Virus record (IMG/VR): IMGVR_UViG_2802429245_000015
DNA length: 35,147 bases
From: a virus
Taxonomy: Duplodnaviria > Heunggongvirae > Uroviricota > Caudoviricetes
Reading direction: 5' to 3' (one strand)
Shown one piece after another: positions 1 to 27,373 of this stretch. Each line of letters opens with the position of its first letter. The stretch's first letter is position 1. Position numbers and translations under genes: made by a program. Below the pieces are notes generated by a model that saw nothing but the letters and a program-made list of their open reading frames with translations, was not told where the DNA came from and made no database searches.

Positions 1-738
1 TCACTTCGGGTATGGCTGAATCCTGAATAGCTTGGTGTTTAGGCGCTTTTTTGCACGCTTATTCAGGAATCTGATGTAGCGATATTGATTAAATTTGTGT
101 ACCACGGCCCGCTCCTTATTAGCCCGCAAATACACGCCTCGTTGCCCTCCACGCTTAATCGCGTTCATCGTTATCTCGTGATACCACTCGCCGTCCAGCT
201 CGTAGAACGTGCTTTCATGGCTGCCAATAAAATCAAAATTCGACGCCTGATATACCACGCCTGCACGTCCGCAACGTTCGTCTGCAAAGGACTGAACCCA
301 CTCCACTGACGGATACAGTAACCTGATGGTTTTCAGCGCGTAGCTGATGGCCCGTGATTCAGAGTTGCGGGGCATGTCATCGTGTAACCACATGCGGTTC
401 AGTTCCATATAGCCCCGGTTATCCGTTTCAAGCACGACCCGGCGCCCTGAGTTGGGGTTAAGGGCATATCCCCACTGAAGAACACCAACCAGATCACGTC
501 CGCTGAATACGCCCAGATGCAGGTAGGAGTTATTCACAAAACGGCGGGAATAATGCTTTGTCTGAATGATTGTGCGGGCCAGCCAGCAGGATATGGTTTC
601 AACACGCAGCTCCTTTGAACCATAACCGACAATACGGCCTTCATACTCAATAACGCAGGGTTTTGTCAGAATGCGTGATTTCTTCTCTTTTCCCACAATA
701 CAGCTCCGTGGGATGCTCTTTGGCATTCGATATGACAA
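1..738 (-). CDS. mom: Mom-like DNA modification protein (anti-restriction adenine modification); true start probably downstream of 738
   Basis: 245-codon ORF with its stop at 1-3; begins inside the 3' end of com, as mom overlaps com in Mu; last gene of the late region. Assigned by synteny and size, not by a recognised motif. Confidence 0.6.
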
Positions 739-832
739 TGTAACGTTTACAGCGAGGACATTTAATTTCTATATGCTTAAAACCTCCTTTAAACAGTAAT
801 TTATTGCAGTTTTTACAGCGAACAGAGTCCAT
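647..832 (-). CDS. com: Com zinc-finger translational activator of mom
   Basis: ATG at 830-832 preceded by GGGGGA; product [61 protein letters not shown] closely matches remembered Mu Com (CxxC...CxxC finger, ...HCGKRE.ITHSD..RY). The track ORF 647-859 carries a 9-aa N-terminal extension. Confidence 0.8.
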
Positions 833-955
833 GATTCCCCCTGTGTAATAACCAGACATGAGCGCCCGGAGGGCTGGGGGTATTTAATCACAACCGATGC
901 AAACCGACGATCGATATGATGTTATCGATCGTCATAAACTATACAAACTGATTAT
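833..955 (-). promoter_or_regulatory. com-mom promoter region with a dyad carrying two GATC (Dam) sites
   Basis: Non-coding gap upstream of com. Perfect inverted repeat gacgatcgata (906-916) / tatcgatcgtc (923-933) with GATC at 909-912 and 927-930. Confidence 0.5.
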
Positions 956-1531
956 TTAATCACCGACAGTTAACGCTCTCACCTCGTCCAGTATGGACAG
1001 CTGGGAAAGCTGCTCCTTCATTTCACGCTGGCGCTGATAAATCTCGTCATTGCGATCGACCTGTGCCTGCGCCATTGCTGTCGCCAGTTCTTCCAGTTCC
1101 TGTATCGACAGTTTCACCTGTTGATTATCGGCGTCACCCCACGTCATAACGTCGCGTGCCATATCGGATTTTGATGCCATCACCACCGGATAAAGGCGAG
1201 CCAGTGAGTCGGGGCCAGCGTTCCAGGTATGACCGTTCCATTCGAACGTGAACGGCTGCGCTTCCTGCTCTGTTCGCCACGCCTCGATTTCCCGTTTTTT
1301 GGCATCTTTTGCCGCTGCGATAAGTTCCGGCGTGACGGTGAACGGGGCGATTTCGCCCCATTTGCCGCTCTGTAACTCTTCCCAGATGCGCTGGCCTGTC
1401 GGGGCGCTATCGTCCTGCATGGCGGTATACGGGACGAATTCCCTTTCACCTTCAAATAGCACCTCGCAGTCAACCGCACCATTTTCGAGATAATGCGCGT
1501 TTCTGATGCCTTTTACCGCTCTGATTTTCAT
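956..1531 (-). CDS. tail fibre assembly (chaperone) protein
   Basis: 191-aa ORF directly downstream of the large tail fibre gene; position and size typical of fibre chaperones. Confidence 0.55.
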   Translation of the reverse strand: MKIRAVKGIRNAHYLENGAVDCEVLFEGEREFVPYTAMQDDSAPTGQRIWEELQSGKWGEIAPFTVTPELIAAAKDAKKREIEAWRTEQEAQPFTFEWNGHTWNAGPDSLARLYPVVMASKSDMARDVMTWGDADNQQVKLSIQELEELATAMAQAQVDRNDEIYQRQREMKEQLSQLSILDEVRALTVGD

Positions 1532-1545
1532 GTTTTATTTCCTCG

Positions 1546-4500
1546 TTACTCGATGCGCACAAACAGGCAGATACGACCGCTTGTTCCGTAAGAGTCCCTG
1601 ACCCCGGATAACGCCATATAACGCCCCGGGAAAGTGTACCCTGTAGCTCCTGCACTCGGTGTGGAACCGTAGGAGCCAGCCCCCGCAGAAGATATTGTGC
1701 ACGAAAGATTAACTCCGCCCAGTTGTGACCCTGGCACCACATCACCCAGGCCAATTTTGATTTCTTTATCCCCGGAAGTTGTTCCGCGATAAACAGCAAG
1801 CACCGGAACACCCACTGCCGGGTATTTGAAATATGAGCCTGAGCCTGCTGTCCGGGACAGTAAGAACGCCAGCGAATCGCCGTCGTAAATGACAGGGCTT
1901 ACTGTTGCATTCCAGTTGTTTCCACTCCAGCGGTAAGTCAGGCGATGAATACTGTGCTCACCTTCGTAATACTGGTTAAAACACAGCAGCATTTTGAATT
2001 TACGCGTTGTGTCTGATTCATCGTTATCAAAGGGCGACCACATCACATCAATGATGCCGTTAAATTTTGTGGTGCCTGCCAGTAGTGTGGAAGAGTCCGC
2101 AATGCTGACCGCATAACGCCCCGGGGTGGCCTCTTTCAGCCATTCAGCAAAATCGGCCTGTCCGTCAAATGTCAGGGCTTCGGTGCTGGCAAATGCCTGA
2201 CCGAACCCATACATGCCGGACAGTGCCAGCCTGCCCGGTGTGCGGTCGCGGATATCGCTCTGGGGTTCCATCGTCGCAGCCGCTTTCAGTTCAAGCTCCG
2301 TGCGCATGGCTTCTGTCGTGTCCAGCGCCAGTAATGCGCGGGCTTTTTCTGACAGTTGCGCCAGTAAAATCCGGCCCTCTGCACTGAAATAAGGCAGCGT
2401 GTTTTCTTCCGGTGTTATCTGGCTGACAGCCGTTAACACGTCATTAAGCGGCTGTTTACCTGCCAGTGCTTTAGTGACCGTTGTCGCAAAGTTCGGGTCA
2501 TTGCCCAGCGCCGCTGCCAGCTCGTTCAGCGTGTCCAGGGTTTCCGGTGATGAGTCAACCAGCGCGGCGAGCAGTTTGCGGACAAACGCCGCATTGGCTA
2601 TCTCAGTGCCTGCTGCGTCATCCGGCGGGGTTGGTGTTGTCGGCGTTCCGGTCAGCGCCGGGCTTTTCAGTGGTGCGCGGGTTTCAATCAGCGCCCTGAG
2701 TGAAGCCTCATCAACCTTCAGGTTCTCCCACCCAACCAGATAACCACTTCCGGTGTAACGGTTGTAATAAATATGACCGTTAATACCGTAGAAAATAATG
2801 ACCTTATAGGCCTTATCATCGGTCGGGTAGTCATTGGGTGTTGGCCAGATAATTTCAACAACACCACTGAACAACACGCCCTGTATTACTGCTTTTGTAT
2901 CCGCATAAACGGCATAGCGTCCGGGTTTTGCCATTTTTACCCAGCGGAGAAAATCAGCTCCTGTTTTAAACTCGGTCCTGTCGATGCTGGAAAACGCTTT
3001 CCCAAACCCGAACATGCCGGGAATCGCCAGACGACCTTCGGTGCGGTCGTAAATATTCTCCTGCGCATCCTTCTGTGCTGCATTGCCAAGTTGTGGCGTC
3101 AGATTCGTCCAGGTGACCGGGGCGGAGATATTATCGCCACGAACGGTCATAAGAATCCGTCCGTCTTTTCCAAAAAACAGAACCAGCTTTGTTGCTGTCT
3201 GGCTGGTTTTGTCGCCCCAGCCATTATCCAGCCAGATAATTTCTGTTATCCCGGTGGTTTCTTCCGTTCGCGTGGAAAAGGTGTAATACCGTCCCGGGTG
3301 CAGGTTGTGAGCGGTTCTGGCTATATCCGCTATATTGCTGGCAATAATTGAACGTGCTCCGGCGTCCGTCATTCCGTAACCAAATGCACCAGGCAGCGCA
3401 ACGCGACCTTCCGTGCTGTCGTAAAGGTCTGTCTGTATGTCCCTTACCGCTGCGCTTTTCAGCTCAAGCTCATTACGCATGGCTTCCACTGTGGCCTGTG
3501 CCAGCAGTGACCGGGCTTTTTCTGACAGCGGAGACAGTGAAGCATTCCCGTCCTGATTAAAGCACAGAAGGTTATCGGCTCGCTCTTCCAGATTACTGAT
3601 AGCGGTTAACACGTCGCTGAGTGGTTGTTTACCCGCCAGCGCGTTCATGATTGTTGTCGCAAACTCCGGGTCATTGCCCAGCGCCGCTGCCAGCTCGTTC
3701 AGTGTGTCCAGGGCTTCCGGGGACGAGTCAACCAGCGCGGCGAGCAGTTTGCGGACAAATGCCGCGTTCGCCATCTCCAGCCCGGTCGCATCGTCCGGCG
3801 GGGTTGGTGTGGTTGGCGTACCTGTGAACGCCGGGCTGTCCAGTGGCGCTTTTGTTTTCGTCTCGTCCATGACGGTTTTGACGGCTTTTGGCGTGGCTGC
3901 CAGTTCTTCGCTGTCGTTGTCTGTATCACTACAGAGTTGCACCAGACCTTTTTCTGTCGTGGAAGCATTGCTTCCCTTCAGGTCATCAACTATCCGTTGT
4001 GCCTCGTCCCTGTGCTGTTTCGCGCTCTGCTCGCTTTTTGCTGCCGCTTCGGCGCTGGCTTTTGCCTCGCCGGTCAGCGTTGCAGCTTCACCGAGTTTAT
4101 CGACCGCTTTCTGGACTATCTTATCGGCATCTTTGACCGCCTGTTCTGCCCGGGCGGCATTCTGGTTTGTTTCGGAGGCCAGCTCTTCAGCTTTCTGGAC
4201 ATTACCCGCAATTTCTTCTGCATCCTGCCGTATTTCCCCTGCGAGGGTTTCTGTATCCTGGCGGGCCTGTTCAGCAGCGTCCGCATGCTCTCTGGCTTTT
4301 TCTGCGCTTTGCTGCGCCTGTTGCGCCAGTTCCTCGAATTTCTTCAGGGCTTCCGGGCGCAGGTCAATATCGGTTGCCCCCAGAAAATCATTCAGCGAAC
4401 CGTCTGTCGAATCTTCATAAACGCGAATGACACCGATTTCTGAAAGGCGCTGTGTGCTTTGTGTCAGGCGAACGCTGTACACACCCGGCAGAACGGGGAA

Positions 4501-4644
4501 GTCGTACTCCCCGCTCTGTGTGGTGACGTGGCTGAAAACACCTTTCAGAATCCCTGCGCGGTTGTGCAGGGAGGTCAGTGTAATGGTTGCGCCGCCCAGC
4601 GGTTCTCCCGTGGGCGTTTTAATCACACCTTTAAGCTGCGGCAT
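1546..4644 (-). CDS. side tail fibre protein (lambda Stf / P2 H-like), about 1032 aa
   Basis: ATG at 4642-4644 with GGAG 7 nt upstream (track ORF extends 14 codons further). N-terminus MPQLKGVIKTPTGEPLGGATITL...YSVRL...VYEDS resembles the Stf N-terminal anchor domain; Ala/Glu-rich coiled coil; motif TPKAVKTVMDETKTKAPLDSPAFTGTPTTPT...SPEALDTLNELAAALGNDP present twice; three about 110-aa DRTxGRLA.PG.FG.G...PGRY repeat domains. Confidence 0.8.
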   Translation of the reverse strand: MPQLKGVIKTPTGEPLGGATITLTSLHNRAGILKGVFSHVTTQSGEYDFPVLPGVYSVRLTQSTQRLSEIGVIRVYEDSTDGSLNDFLGATDIDLRPEALKKFEELAQQAQQSAEKAREHADAAEQARQDTETLAGEIRQDAEEIAGNVQKAEELASETNQNAARAEQAVKDADKIVQKAVDKLGEAATLTGEAKASAEAAAKSEQSAKQHRDEAQRIVDDLKGSNASTTEKGLVQLCSDTDNDSEELAATPKAVKTVMDETKTKAPLDSPAFTGTPTTPTPPDDATGLEMANAAFVRKLLAALVDSSPEALDTLNELAAALGNDPEFATTIMNALAGKQPLSDVLTAISNLEERADNLLCFNQDGNASLSPLSEKARSLLAQATVEAMRNELELKSAAVRDIQTDLYDSTEGRVALPGAFGYGMTDAGARSIIASNIADIARTAHNLHPGRYYTFSTRTEETTGITEIIWLDNGWGDKTSQTATKLVLFFGKDGRILMTVRGDNISAPVTWTNLTPQLGNAAQKDAQENIYDRTEGRLAIPGMFGFGKAFSSIDRTEFKTGADFLRWVKMAKPGRYAVYADTKAVIQGVLFSGVVEIIWPTPNDYPTDDKAYKVIIFYGINGHIYYNRYTGSGYLVGWENLKVDEASLRALIETRAPLKSPALTGTPTTPTPPDDAAGTEIANAAFVRKLLAALVDSSPETLDTLNELAAALGNDPNFATTVTKALAGKQPLNDVLTAVSQITPEENTLPYFSAEGRILLAQLSEKARALLALDTTEAMRTELELKAAATMEPQSDIRDRTPGRLALSGMYGFGQAFASTEALTFDGQADFAEWLKEATPGRYAVSIADSSTLLAGTTKFNGIIDVMWSPFDNDESDTTRKFKMLLCFNQYYEGEHSIHRLTYRWSGNNWNATVSPVIYDGDSLAFLLSRTAGSGSYFKYPAVGVPVLAVYRGTTSGDKEIKIGLGDVVPGSQLGGVNLSCTISSAGAGSYGSTPSAGATGYTFPGRYMALSGVRDSYGTSGRICLFVRIE
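2423..2677. repeat. internal direct repeat copy 1 inside the tail fibre gene
   Basis: Aligns with 3596-3850 at an offset of 1173 bp (391 codons, in frame). Core 2491-2590 vs 3664-3763 differs at about 5 positions by hand alignment. Confidence 0.85.
3596..3850. repeat. internal direct repeat copy 2 inside the tail fibre gene
   Basis: See copy 1; shared core gggtcattgcccagcgccgctgccagctcgttcag...tcaaccagcgcggcgagcagtttgcggacaaa. Confidence 0.85.
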
Positions 4645-5071
4645 CGGGACGCTCCGGCCAGTTGATGGAATTAAAGGAGGCTTCATCGGTAACGGTGCTT
4701 AAATCCAGCGCCTTCAGTGATTTGATATGCGCCATCCACCGCGCCAGACGGGCTTTATCGTCATCGCTGATGATTCCCAGTTCCAGCTCAGTTTTCCAGT
4801 CGGAGGTGATTTCCCTTGCTTCAGCCAGCAGGTGCTGGCGTTGCGTTTCCGCTTTCTGCTGCCAGTTAATTACGGGTTCTTTTAATACCGGATATCCGTT
4901 TTCGCCAGATACAATAATAAAACCGTCAGTCTGGCCCTGTAACAGTCTCTGATATTCTTCATCCGTGATTTCCTGTAAATCATTCGGCCACGTTCCCGCA
5001 TTTTCATAATCACCCTGAAGGCCAGAATGATAAAAACCGTTTGTTGATGGGCTGAAATAAATAGTCATCAT
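4631..5071 (-). CDS. tail fibre assembly protein (Mu U / lambda Tfa-like)
   Basis: 146 aa; N-terminus MMTIYFSPSTNGFY typical of Tfa chaperones; directly follows the short fibre gene; start overlaps its stop. Confidence 0.7.
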   Translation of the reverse strand: MMTIYFSPSTNGFYHSGLQGDYENAGTWPNDLQEITDEEYQRLLQGQTDGFIIVSGENGYPVLKEPVINWQQKAETQRQHLLAEAREITSDWKTELELGIISDDDKARLARWMAHIKSLKALDLSTVTDEASFNSINWPERPDAAA

Positions 5072-5958
5072 TAATACCCTATCGCTGTCCAGTACATAAC
5101 GCCGTTATTCTCGCTGTTGAATGTCGCACCTGCTGCTGATAACGATTTCAGGGAAATAGAGTAATCAGCACGGGTGTATGCGTTGGTAATAGTGATGCTG
5201 GTACATGCTGACGGAAATGATATCGGAAACGTCAGCCCGGCACTGGCATTGCCGAGATACCCCCACTGAATAATCACCCCGGTGGACGTGTCCTTAAACC
5301 AGCCATTACCGGCTTTTGACGCCGTGTTTTTTTGCTGGTAACGGTTGTCACCTTCAGTTTGTGACATTCCCGCAGAAATCGTGATATCGCGGCTGCCATC
5401 AAACAGCACATTGTTAATCCTGCGGGCCGTCTGAAGGCGGGTTGCCGTTCCGGCGTTGCCGCTGATGTTGTTGATGGTGATATCCGACATCAGAGCCATG
5501 CCGTTGACCTTGCGGGTATTCGGTACGGCATTACTGGCTTTATTTACCGTGTCACGTAATGAAAGCGCATTGATAATTTCATCGGCTGTGGTTTTCCCGA
5601 GAATACCGCGCACAAACGCACTGAGCGGCGTTAATGCCATTGTGTCCTTGCCGGTGAAATACGGGAACGTATTATTCTGACCGGTTAATCCGGCAATAGC
5701 TCCGGCTGAACCACTGTTCGTGATAAACAGCTTTTTCAGCGCCGTCATGATCTGGTCGGTGGTATTTTTATCCGGCTTGATATTTGCCTGCCGGAGAATT
5801 TCCAGCAGTTCAGACTGCACGATATTAAACCAGTCCGGCCCCGGATAGGTGGGTGGAATACCATTCCCGCCTTCGGTGAAATAAAGCGTTGTCTTGCTTA
5901 ATTCAGCCGCGACAGGTGGCATTACCGGTACACCCGTCGGATTATCCACATGAAACAT
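5071..5958 (-). CDS. tail fibre protein (Mu S-like, short, 295 aa)
   Basis: N-terminus MFHVDNPTGVPVMPP...TEGGNGIPPTYPGPDWFN resembles the conserved N-terminal domain of Mu/P2-type fibres; followed by a Tfa chaperone. Confidence 0.6.
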   Translation of the reverse strand: MFHVDNPTGVPVMPPVAAELSKTTLYFTEGGNGIPPTYPGPDWFNIVQSELLEILRQANIKPDKNTTDQIMTALKKLFITNSGSAGAIAGLTGQNNTFPYFTGKDTMALTPLSAFVRGILGKTTADEIINALSLRDTVNKASNAVPNTRKVNGMALMSDITINNISGNAGTATRLQTARRINNVLFDGSRDITISAGMSQTEGDNRYQQKNTASKAGNGWFKDTSTGVIIQWGYLGNASAGLTFPISFPSACTSITITNAYTRADYSISLKSLSAAGATFNSENNGVMYWTAIGY

Positions 5959-19123: not shown

Positions 19124-19172
19124 GTCAGTCTCCGTCGTTTGGGGTTACCGACGGTCAGTATGCGGAAGGCAG

Positions 19173-19198
19173 AAAAAAAGCCGGATTTACCGGCTTCA
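19173..19198 (-). terminator. hairpin plus A/T-run element (intrinsic terminator and/or late-promoter motif), copy 1
   Basis: aaaaaaagccggatttaccggcttca, identical to 26894-26919. On the minus strand this reads gaagccggtaaatccggc followed by T7. Confidence 0.5.
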
Positions 19199-19337
19199 CT
19201 GAAAACGGGAAGAACACCCCCTTCAAAACCCCTTCAAAAACGCCACAGCATCTTCAAAAACGTCTGAGTGCACATTCACGCCATCAGAATAAAAAACGCG
19301 TTTCTGATGCGTTTCAGGGGGATTTACGGCGGGAGGG

Positions 19338-26878: not shown

Positions 26879-26893
26879 TGGTGCCGGAGGCAT

Positions 26894-26919
26894 AAAAAAA
26901 GCCGGATTTACCGGCTTCA
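26894..26919 (-). terminator. hairpin plus A/T-run element, copy 2 (intrinsic terminator after mor, comparable to Mu t9.2)
   Basis: Identical 26-mer to 19173-19198, starting 5 bp after the mor stop. Confidence 0.55.
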
Positions 26920-26923
26920 TTGA

Positions 26924-27373
26924 TTAAGGGCGTCGTGGCGGACGACGAACGGGGTGAGGCAGGTTCGGGGAGTGGTAAAACAAATCCGGCTGGTATTTAT
27001 TACGCTCCAGACGTCGCATCCGTTTGATGGCCTTGTAGACGGTTTTATACGTCACCCCATAACGCTGAACCAGTTCAGGAATATTATGGCCGTTAAAATC
27101 ACGCCAGATACGCATATCCCGGACAAGATTCTCCAGAATATTCCCCCTAGGAACATAAACCTGCATCCCGCCGATATGGCGACAAATCGCCACAACCAGC
27201 TCAATGGAATGAGCAGGGTCTGCGCCAATCCGGGCCAGCTCTTTACGCAGCAGTGCGTTCAGTTCAGAAAGTAACGCCGGATAAGCGGTGTTTTCCTGGT
27301 AATCGTTAAGGTATTCCAGAACGCTGTCGTCCCGGAAGTCTTCGAATAAATCCTGCTCTTTCATCTGTTTCAT
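26924..27373 (-). CDS. mor: Mor middle-operon transcription activator
   Basis: 149 aa; ...FEDFRDDSVLEYL...YPALLSELNALLRKELARIGADPAHSIELVVAICRHIGGMQVYVPRG...RDMRIWRDFNGHNIPELVQRYGVTYKTVYKAIKRMRRL matches remembered Mu Mor, including the C-terminal helix-turn-helix. Confidence 0.8.
   Translation of the reverse strand: MKQMKEQDLFEDFRDDSVLEYLNDYQENTAYPALLSELNALLRKELARIGADPAHSIELVVAICRHIGGMQVYVPRGNILENLVRDMRIWRDFNGHNIPELVQRYGVTYKTVYKAIKRMRRLERNKYQPDLFYHSPNLPHPVRRPPRRP

What the first reader, a model, noticed from the sequence alone, without database searches (positions are those of the whole stretch)
2423..3850. Side tail fibre gene carries in-frame 255-bp direct repeats
Two about 255-bp repeats (about 95% identical across a 100-bp core) lie exactly 1173 bp apart, which is 391 codons. 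Homologous recombination between them would delete or duplicate a 391-aa block holding two of the three repeat domains without breaking the frame, giving fibre length or receptor-domain variation.
Basis: seen in the sequence. Interest (0 to 1): 0.45.

Follow-up and report, generated by a model that had tools for sequence, protein, structure and literature searches.

The report
Recombination-prone repeats in a prophage tail fibre
A Mu-like prophage's long tail-fibre gene contains two in-frame copies of a conserved fibre-shaft segment, and related phages carry long and short versions of the fibre that differ exactly by the block between those copies. This fits the long-known way in which phage fibres evolve, by recombination at conserved motifs.

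Summary
Window 2423-2676 and 3596-3849 are a 254-nt direct repeat, 83% identical overall and 93-94% in a 100-nt core. The copies lie 1173 nt (391 codons) apart, inside one minus-strand gene (1546-4644, 1032 aa).

The gene encodes a lambda-Stf-like fibre with the layout N-CC-F2-[R1-L1-D1-D2]-[R2-L2-D3]-C, and it sits in a complete Mu-like prophage.

Two independent long/short allele pairs differ by in-frame indels of 392 and 394 codons bounded by the repeat:
- E. coli prophages at uspF/ompN (1046 vs 654 aa).
- Phages Rac-SA53 and vB_Apl-pPE4 (1061 vs 667 aa).

In each short allele the single repeat is chimeric, R1-like at its 5' end and R2-like at its 3' end, with the switch in the conserved core. 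Synonymous divergence is 0.16 in the core against about 1 in the flanks, so the core is homogenised at the DNA level.

The long form is nevertheless stable: all 132 close protein clusters keep two copies. No duplication-type allele was found, and no deletion allele was found in this Mu-like lineage.

Recombination at conserved fibre motifs is long established (phage P1 gene S, phage T4 gene 37). This is a new member of a known kind, of moderate to low interest.

The parts
1546..4644 (-). Stf-like tail-fibre gene, 1032 aa from Met15. The longest ORF runs to 4686. Layout: N-CC-F2-R1-L1-D1-D2-R2-L2-D3-C.
   Evidence: ORF list and translation. Pfam PF08400 phage_tail_N (aa 18-143) and PF03406 Phage_fiber_2 (aa 242-281). 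PHROG tail-fibre families. The closest protein, P0001 (Escherichia marmotae), is 99% identical and 1032 aa. RefSeq homologues start at MPQLKG.
3596..3849 (-). Repeat copy R1, the promoter-proximal copy. It encodes ORF aa about 280-364: APLDSPAFTGTPTTPTPPDD...AFVRKLLAALVDSSPEALDTLNELAAALGNDPEFATT...
2423..2676 (-). Repeat copy R2, the distal copy. It is 1173 nt (391 codons) downstream of R1 in the gene.
3653..3759 (-). High-identity core of R1, paired with 2480-2586 in R2. It contains 35-bp and 36-bp perfect matches. Synonymous divergence (dS) is 0.16 here against 0.9-1.3 in the flanks.
   Evidence: Fisher p = 5e-4.
2480..2586 (-). High-identity core of R2, the partner of 3653-3759.
2686..3591 (-). 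The unique part of the optional cassette: linker L1 (3445-3591), domain D1 (3070-3444) and domain D2 (2686-3069). An R1 x R2 crossover would remove or duplicate this stretch plus one repeat unit.
   Evidence: Paralogy of the D domains. This stretch is absent from the short natural alleles L004, L005, L007 and L012.
1549..2418 (-). Distal module kept in both long and short alleles: L2 (2272-2418), D3 (1882-2271) and C-terminal domain C (1549-1881). C is the most variable part among relatives (57-72% identity against 86-98% for L2 (one outlier, L007, at 53%) and D3) and is the inferred receptor-binding tip.
956..1531 (-). DUF4376 gene immediately downstream. It accompanies the Stf-like gene in all 11 related loci fetched for this family and is the inferred fibre chaperone or assembly partner.
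   Evidence: Pfam PF14301. Same neighbour in L001-L007 and L009-L012.
4631..5958 (-). First fibre cassette of the prophage: a short tail fibre (5071-5958, Gp53-like C-terminal domain) and a Caudo_TAP assembly protein (4631-5071). It carries no R repeat.

Best explanation
The two repeats are paralogous copies of a conserved fibre-shaft unit (R, about 89 aa). This unit is used one to about thirteen times in thousands of phage fibre proteins. In this gene the two copies bracket an optional 391-aa cassette (linker L1 plus globular domains D1 and D2).

The central ~100 nt of the two copies is kept nearly identical at the DNA level. It contains perfect matches of 35 and 36 bp, just above the minimal pairing length for RecA (31-34 bp) and Red-beta-type recombinases (23-27 bp).

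Unequal homologous recombination in this core can happen between sister copies of the prophage or with fibre genes of other prophages. It removes or swaps the cassette in frame. The deletion product here would be a 641-aa fibre, N-CC-F2-R-L2-D3-C, which keeps the virion attachment end, the distal tip and the chaperone gene.

What is shown:
- The anatomy of the gene and repeats.
- The DNA-level homogenisation of the core.
- Natural long/short alleles with crossovers in the core.

What is inferred:
- That the event still happens in this prophage.
- Which recombinase does it. No Rad52-like recombinase was seen in the window, so host RecA or a co-resident phage's recombinase is the likely agent.
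- That the short fibre is functional and changes adsorption.
- That deletion, rather than insertion, was the direction of the natural events.

This is an occasional evolutionary event, not a programmed switch.
For: 1. The repeat is in frame and far beyond chance.
2. Pair 1: prophages L011 and L004 sit at the same uspF/ompN site. They are collinear at 95% upstream and 91.5-93.5% downstream. The two alignments overlap exactly over the 254-nt R, and the indel is 1176 nt = 392 codons. The R of L004 is R1-type up to about nt 60 and R2-type from about nt 192.
3. Pair 2: for vB_Apl-pPE4 against Rac-SA53, gene nt 1-1310 match nt 1-1301 (89.7%) and nt 826-2004 match nt 2008-3186 (95.0%, no gaps). The indel is 1182 nt = 394 codons. 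The switch from R1 context (93-100%) to R2 context (93-100%, mostly 100%) is clean, at about R nt 150.
4. Measured against the window's own R1 and R2, the single R of L004, L005 and L007 is R1-like at the 5' end and R2-like at the 3' end. The switch points differ between them but all lie inside R.
5. A synthetic deletion-junction query gives single-piece collinear hits in at least 19 complete E. coli genomes.
6. All four junction combinations occur naturally: F2|R|L1, D2|R|L2, F2|R|L2 and D2|R|L1.
7. dS between R1 and R2 is 0.16 in the core (aa 309-340) and 0.9-1.3 in the flanks; Fisher p = 5e-4.
8. The R unit matches 19,044 representative proteins, with 1-13 copies each, spaced 74, ~130, ~260 or ~393 aa apart.
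9. Minimal pairing lengths and recombination between lambda and the Rac stf region are documented in PMC3945230.
Against: - The long form is stable. All 132 close protein clusters (75-99% identical; E. coli, E. marmotae, E. albertii, Salmonella) keep two R copies 391-394 aa apart.
- No deletion-type protein with this Mu-like N domain appeared among hits scoring 1294 bits or more, which corresponds to roughly 92% identity or more.
- No three-copy allele appeared among the top 120 hits; the longest was 1086 aa.
- Overall the repeats are 17% diverged, which host mismatch repair would strongly penalise.
- The window has no Chi site and no phage recombinase was seen in it.
- The direction of the natural events (deletion or insertion) cannot be read from the data.
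- Nothing here measures events within a population.
Confidence: 0.72

Rival explanations
1. The repeats are only a structural duplication. Two copies of a trimer-forming shaft unit stay similar because the protein sequence is constrained. They play no role in recombination, and the long and short fibres of other phages are unrelated architectures.
For: The core peptide is almost invariant (dN 0.015). 31 of 42 mismatches are at third codon positions, as expected for ordinary purifying selection. The two-copy form is conserved in all 132 close clusters. The R unit is a common repeated building block.
Against: Protein constraint does not explain a six- to eight-fold local drop in synonymous divergence. 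It also does not explain short alleles whose flanks are 90-95% identical to the long alleles on both sides, with a switch point inside R, in two independent pairs.
Confidence: 0.1
2. The mechanism is the same but the direction or the partners differ. The short one-module fibre is the starting form. The long form, including this gene, arose or spreads by recombination at R between different fibre genes in co-resident prophages. The repeat would then be a scar of module acquisition rather than a substrate for ongoing deletion within the gene.
For: The Stf-like/DUF4376 cassette occurs in several different myovirus prophage backbones, and mosaic boundaries fall at R, at the end of L and at gene nt ~523. 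The 3' type of R always travels with the linker type that follows it. Prophage L006 carries a fragment D2-R-L1-D1. E. coli genomes hold up to 8 matching places.
Against: A gene in which D2 is followed by an R 5' half must already have had two R copies, so a two-copy ancestor is needed anyway. R1-L1-D1 and R2-L2-D3 are old paralogues (54.6% aa identity, flank dS about 1), whereas long and short alleles differ by only 5-10% in their flanks. A single unequal crossover (deletion) is therefore the more economical explanation. The two directions do not exclude each other.
Confidence: 0.25
3. The repeats belong to a programmed diversification system: site-specific inversion or excision as in Mu Gin/G or P1 Cin/C, or a diversity-generating retroelement with a template and a variable repeat.
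For: Mu-like phages classically vary their fibres with an invertible segment. The repeats lie in a fibre gene.
Against: The window has no inverted repeat of 40 nt or more. No invertase lies between the fibre genes and com/mom; the neighbours are DUF4376, com and mom. The repeats are direct and coding. Mismatches involve all four bases and are not adenine-specific. The ORFs that were scanned are ordinary Mu-type genes with no reverse transcriptase. Not every small ORF was scanned.
Confidence: 0.01
4. The short alleles, or the repeat itself, are assembly artefacts caused by collapse or expansion of a repeat.
For: Repeats can be collapsed by short-read assemblers.
Against: The copies differ at 42 of 254 positions, so reads can tell them apart. 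Short alleles occur in at least 19 complete genomes and one phage genome record. They differ by 5-10% from the long alleles and occur with two different distal ends. The long form occurs in more than 130 protein clusters.
Confidence: 0.02

Closest known systems
[quoted passage not shown]
   Same: Both are in-frame direct repeats inside a fibre gene. The window's R2 core aligns with P1 element b2 at 82-83% over 112-120 nt. The idea is also the same: these conserved motifs are where fibre genes are rearranged and exchanged (references as listed in PMC3945230).
   Different: In P1 the b1 and b2 elements are adjacent tandem copies of 222-223 nt in the constant part of S, and fibre variation is attributed mainly to the Cin-invertible segment. 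Here the copies are 1173 nt apart, bracket two globular domains, and no invertase is present. I could not read the 1992 and 1994 papers because they are not held.
T4-type distal fibre gene 37/38: recombination between conserved motifs; duplications of a small adhesin domain expand host range (Tetart et al. 1996, 1998)
   Same: Short conserved motifs inside a fibre gene serve as crossover points. They give in-frame duplications, deletions or swaps of the domains between them, as summarised in PMC3157838.
   Different: The protein family is unrelated and the phage is virulent. The duplicated unit is small and lies in the receptor-binding tip, and the events were seen experimentally under selection. 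Here the unit is 391 aa in the shaft, and the evidence is comparative only.
Lambda Stf and prophage Stf homologues (PF08400 family); recombination between lambda and the stf regions of the Rac and Qin prophages (De Paepe et al. 2014, PMC3945230)
   Same: The N-terminal PF08400 domain and the Phage_fiber_2 repeat are shared. Homologous recombination between diverged stf sequences with short perfect matches has been measured.
   Different: This gene sits in a Mu-like myovirus after a first fibre/chaperone pair. It is followed by a DUF4376 gene rather than a lambda Tfa-type gene. The published exchanges are between phages, not between repeats within one gene.
Phage Mu fibre variation by the Gin-invertible G segment (S/U against S'/U')
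   Same: The phage backbone is the same: MuA, MuB, Gam, Mor, portal, gp45-48, com and mom. The F2 region matches Mu fibre protein S in the PDB (5yvq, 8ju3).
   Different: There is no G segment, no gin and no inverted repeats. Instead there are two fixed fibre cassettes. Any variation would come from general homologous recombination.

Membership tests
Lambda-Stf-like 'prophage tail fibre' proteins (Pfam PF08400 architecture) | N-terminal PF08400 (phage_tail_N) domain above the gathering score | tested here: met
   90.2 bits against a cut-off of 26.6, aa 18-143.
Lambda-Stf-like 'prophage tail fibre' proteins (Pfam PF08400 architecture) | Phage_fiber_2 (PF03406) repeat in the shaft | tested here: met
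   57.9 bits against a cut-off of 22, aa 242-281.
Lambda-Stf-like 'prophage tail fibre' proteins (Pfam PF08400 architecture) | Carried by a lambdoid siphovirus as a side fibre, followed by a Tfa-type (Caudo_TAP) assembly gene | tested here: not met
   The context is a complete Mu-like myovirus prophage with a sheath and gp45-48 baseplate genes. The downstream gene is DUF4376. The Caudo_TAP gene lies upstream and belongs to the first fibre. So this is a homologue of Stf, not a lambda-type side fibre in the strict sense.
Fibre genes whose internal conserved repeats act as recombination points (P1 S a/b elements; T4 gene 37 motifs) | In-frame direct repeats inside the fibre coding sequence | tested here: met
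   254 nt, 83% identical, spacing 1173 = 3 x 391.
Fibre genes whose internal conserved repeats act as recombination points (P1 S a/b elements; T4 gene 37 motifs) | Natural alleles whose breakpoints fall inside the repeats | tested here: met
   Two independent long/short pairs with the switch inside R. The R copies of L004, L005 and L007 are chimeric.
Fibre genes whose internal conserved repeats act as recombination points (P1 S a/b elements; T4 gene 37 motifs) | Sequence homology to the P1 repeated element b2 | tested here: met
   Gene nt 2126-2245 match P1 at 81.7-83% under the feature annotated 'repeated element b2'.
Fibre genes whose internal conserved repeats act as recombination points (P1 S a/b elements; T4 gene 37 motifs) | Recombinants observed experimentally, with changed host range | not testable with these tools
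   This needs lysate sequencing or PCR plus adsorption assays.
Invertible fibre segments (Mu G/Gin, P1 C/Cin, Min, Pin) | Serine invertase gene and inverted crossover sites flanking alternative fibre C-termini | tested here: not met
   No inverted repeat of 40 nt or more in the window. The genes between the fibre and the prophage end are DUF4376, com and mom.
Diversity-generating retroelements | Reverse transcriptase plus template and variable repeats that differ at adenines | tested here: not met
   Mismatches involve all four bases. No reverse transcriptase was found among the scanned ORFs, though not every small ORF was scanned.

The most novel reading that the evidence does not exclude
The ~100-nt R core could be more than a by-product of protein constraint. 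It could be a nucleotide-level 'recombination joint', maintained because it makes the fibre evolvable. In that case every lysate of this Mu-like phage would contain a measurable minority of short-fibre (and perhaps triple-module) virions, a form of bet-hedging on fibre length and accessory binding domains without any dedicated recombinase. The same joint would also serve as a general plug-in point for exchanging fibre modules between unrelated myovirus and siphovirus prophages.
Probability: 0.12. Interest if true: 0.55.

Novelty: new member of a known kind. Interest (0 to 1): 0.33.

Why it matters
The result gives a concrete, testable example of how a prophage fibre can change length and domain content in one step without losing its frame, its attachment end or its tip. 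It identifies a natural splice point (AFVRKLLAALVDSSPE-LDTLNELAAALGNDP) at which nature has repeatedly joined different fibre modules, which could help in designing chimeric fibres for phage or cosmid delivery vehicles. It also carries an annotation warning: fibre length differences of about 392 aa among near-identical prophages are real alleles, not assembly errors. It does not change the current understanding of fibre evolution.

Tried and rejected
1. Structure of R2-L2-D3-C. AlphaFold2 with a 43-sequence alignment (mean column identity 81%) gave a poor model (mean pLDDT 55.5, R region below 50). Foldseek against the PDB found nothing with E <= 0.001. The fold of R and of the D domains therefore remains unknown.
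2. Family searches. Pfam and NCBIfam scans of R, L, D and C on their own found no family.
3. Search for a deletion allele in this lineage. A search with the synthetic 641-aa deletion protein returned only two-module proteins among its top 120 hits. These score higher because R and D match twice. The search therefore only excludes near-identical (about 92% or more) deletion alleles in this Mu-like lineage.
4. Duplication junction. The synthetic duplication-junction query gave almost only two-piece hits, which are normal genes matched in reverse order. The one single-piece hit lies in a pseudogene fragment (L006).
5. Chi sites as a recombination stimulus. There are none in the window, against about 2 expected.
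6. Phage-encoded Rad52-like recombinase. None was found among the early-region ORFs scanned; only Mu Gam was present.
7. Literature. Sandmeier et al. 1992 (PMC206102) is not held in the library.
8. Third repeat copy. The 43-nt copy at 4325-4367 (72%) lies in the Ala/Glu-rich coiled coil and was judged a chance or low-complexity match.
9. Other rejected readings. A diversity-generating retroelement, an invertible segment and an assembly artefact were all considered and rejected.
Full report
**Observation**

The repeat finder reports a two-copy direct repeat of 254 nt at window 2423-2676 and 3596-3849. It is 83% identical without gaps, with starts 1173 nt apart. It is the only direct repeat of 50 nt or more in the whole 35,147-nt window.

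Gapped blastn of the gene against itself extends the similarity to about 393 nt at 77% (gene nt 838-1230 vs 2011-2403), with E = 5.5e-81.

A 100-nt core is 93-94% identical. The longest perfect matches are 35 and 36 bp. 1173 = 3 x 391. The one thing it did not say is that the gene lies on the minus strand.

**The gene and its setting**

Both copies lie in one ORF, 1546..4686 on the minus strand (1046 aa). RefSeq homologues, and the closest protein in the large protein collection (P0001, Escherichia marmotae, 99% identical, 1032 aa), start at Met15. The gene is therefore 1546-4644.

Pfam finds the lambda-Stf-type N-terminal domain PF08400 (aa 18-143) and one Phage_fiber_2 repeat (aa 242-281). 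PHROGs gives only tail-fibre families.

Self-comparison of the protein gives this layout, in ORF numbering:

| Module | Residues | Note |
|---|---|---|
| N | 15-114 | attachment domain |
| CC | 115-241 | coiled coil |
| F2 | 242-276 | Phage_fiber_2 region |
| R1 | 277-365 | repeat copy 1 |
| L1 | 366-414 | linker |
| D1 | 415-539 | globular domain |
| D2 | 540-667 | globular domain |
| R2 | 668-756 | repeat copy 2 |
| L2 | 757-805 | linker |
| D3 | 806-935 | globular domain |
| C | 936-1046 | C-terminal domain |

R1-L1-D1 and R2-L2-D3 are paralogues (54.6% identity over 238 aa). D2 is a third copy of the D domain (32% to D1, 42% to D3).

The window is a complete Mu-like prophage. It has the following genes:
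- Regulation and transposition: repressor, MuA, MuB, Gam, GemA, Mor.
- Lysis, head and packaging genes: endolysin, gp27, terminase, portal, protease.
- Tail: sheath, tape measure, baseplate gp45-48.
- Fibres: a first short fibre plus a Caudo_TAP chaperone, then this Stf-like gene plus a DUF4376 gene.
- End of the prophage: com and mom.

There is no invertible G segment and no gin. 'Side tail fibre' is therefore true only in the sense of homology.

**Test of the interpretation with related sequences**

I built two synthetic 1-kb queries. One is the junction a crossover in the core would create by deletion (F2-R-L2-D3). The other is the junction it would create by duplication (D2-R-L1-D1).

Against 5,426 complete E. 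coli genomes, the deletion junction gave single-piece, collinear hits in at least 19 genomes. The best was 93.8% identical. Module mapping of the fetched genes confirmed the predicted architecture N'-CC-F2-R-L2-D3-C in L004 (654 aa), L005 (759 aa) and L007 (757 aa).

At the 108 positions where the window's R1-L1 and R2-L2 stretches (414 nt each) differ, the single R of each of these genes is R1-like at the 5' end and R2-like at the 3' end. The switch points differ between genes but all lie inside R.

**Two natural long/short pairs**

Pair 1. L011 (fibre 1046 aa, same two-module layout) and L004 (654 aa) are prophages at the same uspF/ompN site.
- They are collinear at 95-96% upstream and 91.5-93.5% downstream.
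- The two alignments overlap exactly over the 254-nt R.
- The difference is 1176 nt = 392 codons.
- Measured against L011's own R1 and R2, the R of L004 is R1-type up to about nt 60, mixed from 62 to 190, and R2-type from about 192.

Pair 2. Phage Rac-SA53 (tail3, 1061 aa) and phage vB_Apl-pPE4 (gp69, 667 aa) have a different distal end (L1'-D'-C').
- Gene nt 1-1310 of the short allele match nt 1-1301 of the long one (89.7%).
- Gene nt 826-2004 match nt 2008-3186 (95.0%, no gaps).
- The difference is 1182 nt = 394 codons.
- The switch from R1 context (93-100%) to R2 context (93-100%, mostly 100%) is sharp, at about R nt 150, in the most conserved part.

**DNA-level homogenisation of the core**

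| Segment (ORF aa) | dS between R1 and R2 | dN |
|---|---|---|
| Core, 309-340 | 0.16 | 0.015 |
| Rest of R | 0.9-1.3 | 0.13-0.22 |

Synonymous differences in the core against the flanks give Fisher p = 5e-4.

Protein constraint cannot lower synonymous divergence locally six- to eight-fold. Exchange between copies (gene conversion or repeated recombination) is the simplest reading.

The two perfect matches of 35 and 36 bp are just above the minimal efficient pairing segments quoted for RecA (31-34 bp) and Red-beta (23-27 bp) in PMC3945230. That paper also measured recombination between lambda and the diverged stf region of Rac.

**How common and how stable**

Counts in the complete E. coli genomes, for 1-kb junction queries covered at 80% or more in one place:

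| Junction | Genomes |
|---|---|
| F2\|R1\|L1-D1 (native) | 40 |
| D2\|R2\|L2-D3 (native) | 25 |
| F2\|R\|L2-D3 (deletion type, single piece) | at least 19 |
| D2\|R\|L1-D1 (duplication type, single piece) | 1, a pseudogene fragment |

Rac-SA53 shows that D2|R|L1-like junctions do exist in intact genes.

The two-copy form is very stable among close relatives. All 132 protein clusters recovered (75-99% identity; E. coli, E. marmotae, E. albertii, Salmonella) keep two R copies 391-394 aa apart. Three limits on the evidence follow:
- No protein longer than 1086 aa appears among the top 120 hits, so there is no three-module allele among close relatives.
- No near-identical deletion allele with this Mu-like N domain was found.
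- Other Mu-like relatives vary differently. L002 (777 aa) and L003 (639 aa) keep R1-L1 and diverge within the D domains.

The event is therefore occasional on an evolutionary scale. It is not a frequent switch.

**What R is**

A search of 1.84 billion representative proteins with the 89-aa R1 found 19,044 matches at E <= 0.001. Each protein has between 1 and 13 matched stretches.

In a sample of these proteins the core motif recurs every 74 aa (tandem copies), or at about 130, about 260 or about 393 aa. R thus looks like a general shaft unit, the 'string', between optional globular 'beads'.

No Pfam or NCBIfam family covers R, L, D or C. The core motif aligns with a solved 'tail collar fibre gp4' chain, 9d93.

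My structure prediction was too poor to say more (pLDDT 55.5, no significant fold match).

**Most likely mechanism**

Unequal homologous recombination in the R core removes, or rarely adds or swaps, the L1-D1-D2 cassette in frame. It could occur between sister prophage copies during replication, or with fibre genes of other prophages in the same cell.

The deletion product here would be a 641-aa fibre. It has the same architecture as the natural 654-aa fibre of L004. It keeps the N-terminal attachment domain, the distal D3-C tip and the DUF4376 partner, so it is likely to assemble (inference).

C is the most variable part among relatives (57-72% identity against 86-98% for L2 (one outlier, L007, at 53%) and D3). 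It is therefore the probable receptor-binding tip (inference). If so, the event changes fibre length and removes two accessory domains rather than the main receptor-binding end.

The window has no Rad52-type recombinase among the ORFs scanned and no Chi site. Host RecA or a co-resident phage's recombinase would have to do the work.

Deletion is the more economical direction, for two reasons. A D2-R junction requires a two-copy ancestor. The R1/R2 duplication is old (flank dS about 1), while long and short alleles differ by only 5-10%. Insertion by exchange between genes is not excluded.

**Rejected alternatives**

- Invertible segment: the window has no inverted repeats and no invertase.
- Diversity-generating retroelement: mismatches occur at all four bases, 31 of 42 at third codon positions, and no reverse transcriptase was seen.
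- Assembly artefact: the copies differ at 42 of 254 sites. The short alleles occur in many complete genomes, are 5-10% diverged from the long ones, and have two kinds of distal end.

**Comparison with what is known**

Internal repeated elements in fibre genes have been described since 1992. Phage P1 gene S carries annotated 'repeated elements a0, a1, b1, b2', and the window's R2 core matches b2 at 82-83%.

Recombination at conserved motifs that duplicates or swaps fibre domains was shown for T4-type phages by Tetart et al. 1996 and 1998 (cited in PMC3157838). Horizontal exchange of fibre genes was described by Haggard-Ljungquist 1992 and Sandmeier 1992 and 1994 (listed in PMC3945230).

This case works the same way. 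It differs in the size and content of the unit (391 aa, two globular domains), in its setting (an Stf-like second fibre in a Mu-like prophage without a G segment), and in being supported by two clean natural long/short pairs.

**Verdict**

This is a new member of a known kind. Direct evidence of ongoing events in this prophage is lacking. Interest is moderate to low (0.33).

Noticed in passing
window 1-5958 (whole right end of the prophage): This Mu-like prophage has no invertible G segment and no gin. It has two fixed fibre cassettes instead: a short fibre (5071-5958) plus Caudo_TAP (4631-5071), then the Stf-like gene (1546-4644) plus DUF4376 (956-1531). com (starting about 832, minus strand) and mom (1-738) follow directly. 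E. coli Mu-like prophages L001-L003 and L010 have the same layout.
   Followed up: partly
L004, L005, L007, L009, L011, L012 against the window: The Stf-like + DUF4376 pair is the last tail gene pair in several different myovirus prophage backbones: Mu-like, prophages at uspF/ompN, a prophage next to ssrA, and one next to tRNA-Ser after a 'late control protein' gene. The N domain is only 36-38% identical between the Mu-like type and the others. DNA similarity starts at gene nt ~523, inside the coiled coil, which is a second recurrent mosaic boundary.
   Followed up: partly
proteins P0002, P0005, P0008 and others; E. coli records UMNF18 and STEC306-308: Many database entries name this fibre protein 'shikimate transporter'. 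This looks like an annotation error that has been copied from entry to entry.
   Followed up: no
L012 (PP818812.1, 'Actinobacillus phage vB_Apl-pPE4'): The tail-fibre region of this phage is 90-96% identical in DNA to E. coli phage Rac-SA53. That is odd for a phage recorded as infecting Actinobacillus pleuropneumoniae, so the host assignment may need checking.
   Followed up: no
window 19161-19209 and 26882-26930: A 49-nt direct repeat, 86% identical, containing AAAAAAAGCCGGATTTACCGGCTT. On the gene strand it looks like a terminator-type hairpin used twice in the prophage.
   Followed up: no
L006 4436-5800 (E. coli SC418, second prophage): A broken second fibre gene consists of a tail-collar N-terminal fragment followed by a fragment D2-R-L1-D1(start). 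It is the only single-piece match to the duplication-type junction.
   Followed up: partly
E. coli K_EC180 and W13-16 (hits H188, H189); phage SerU-LTIIb (H3): In the two E. coli genomes, fragments 95% identical to the window's L2-D3 (gene nt 2269-2648) lie next to a terminase small-subunit gene. In SerU-LTIIb an stf gene matching gene nt 769-2258 at 88% also lies next to terS. Both look like remnants of fibre genes at prophage ends.
   Followed up: no
window 3592-3858 (R1 as a protein): The 89-aa R unit matches 19,044 representative proteins (317 at E <= 1e-30), with up to 13 copies per protein. No Pfam-A or NCBIfam model covers it.
   Followed up: partly
whole window: There is no Chi site (GCTGGTGG) on either strand in 35 kb, against about 2 expected. 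This is not significant on its own.
   Followed up: no
window 4645-4686: The longest ORF begins 14 codons upstream of the start used by all homologues (Met15, MPQLKG). With that longer start it overlaps the end of the upstream Caudo_TAP gene by 56 nt. The real start is most likely 4644.
   Followed up: yes
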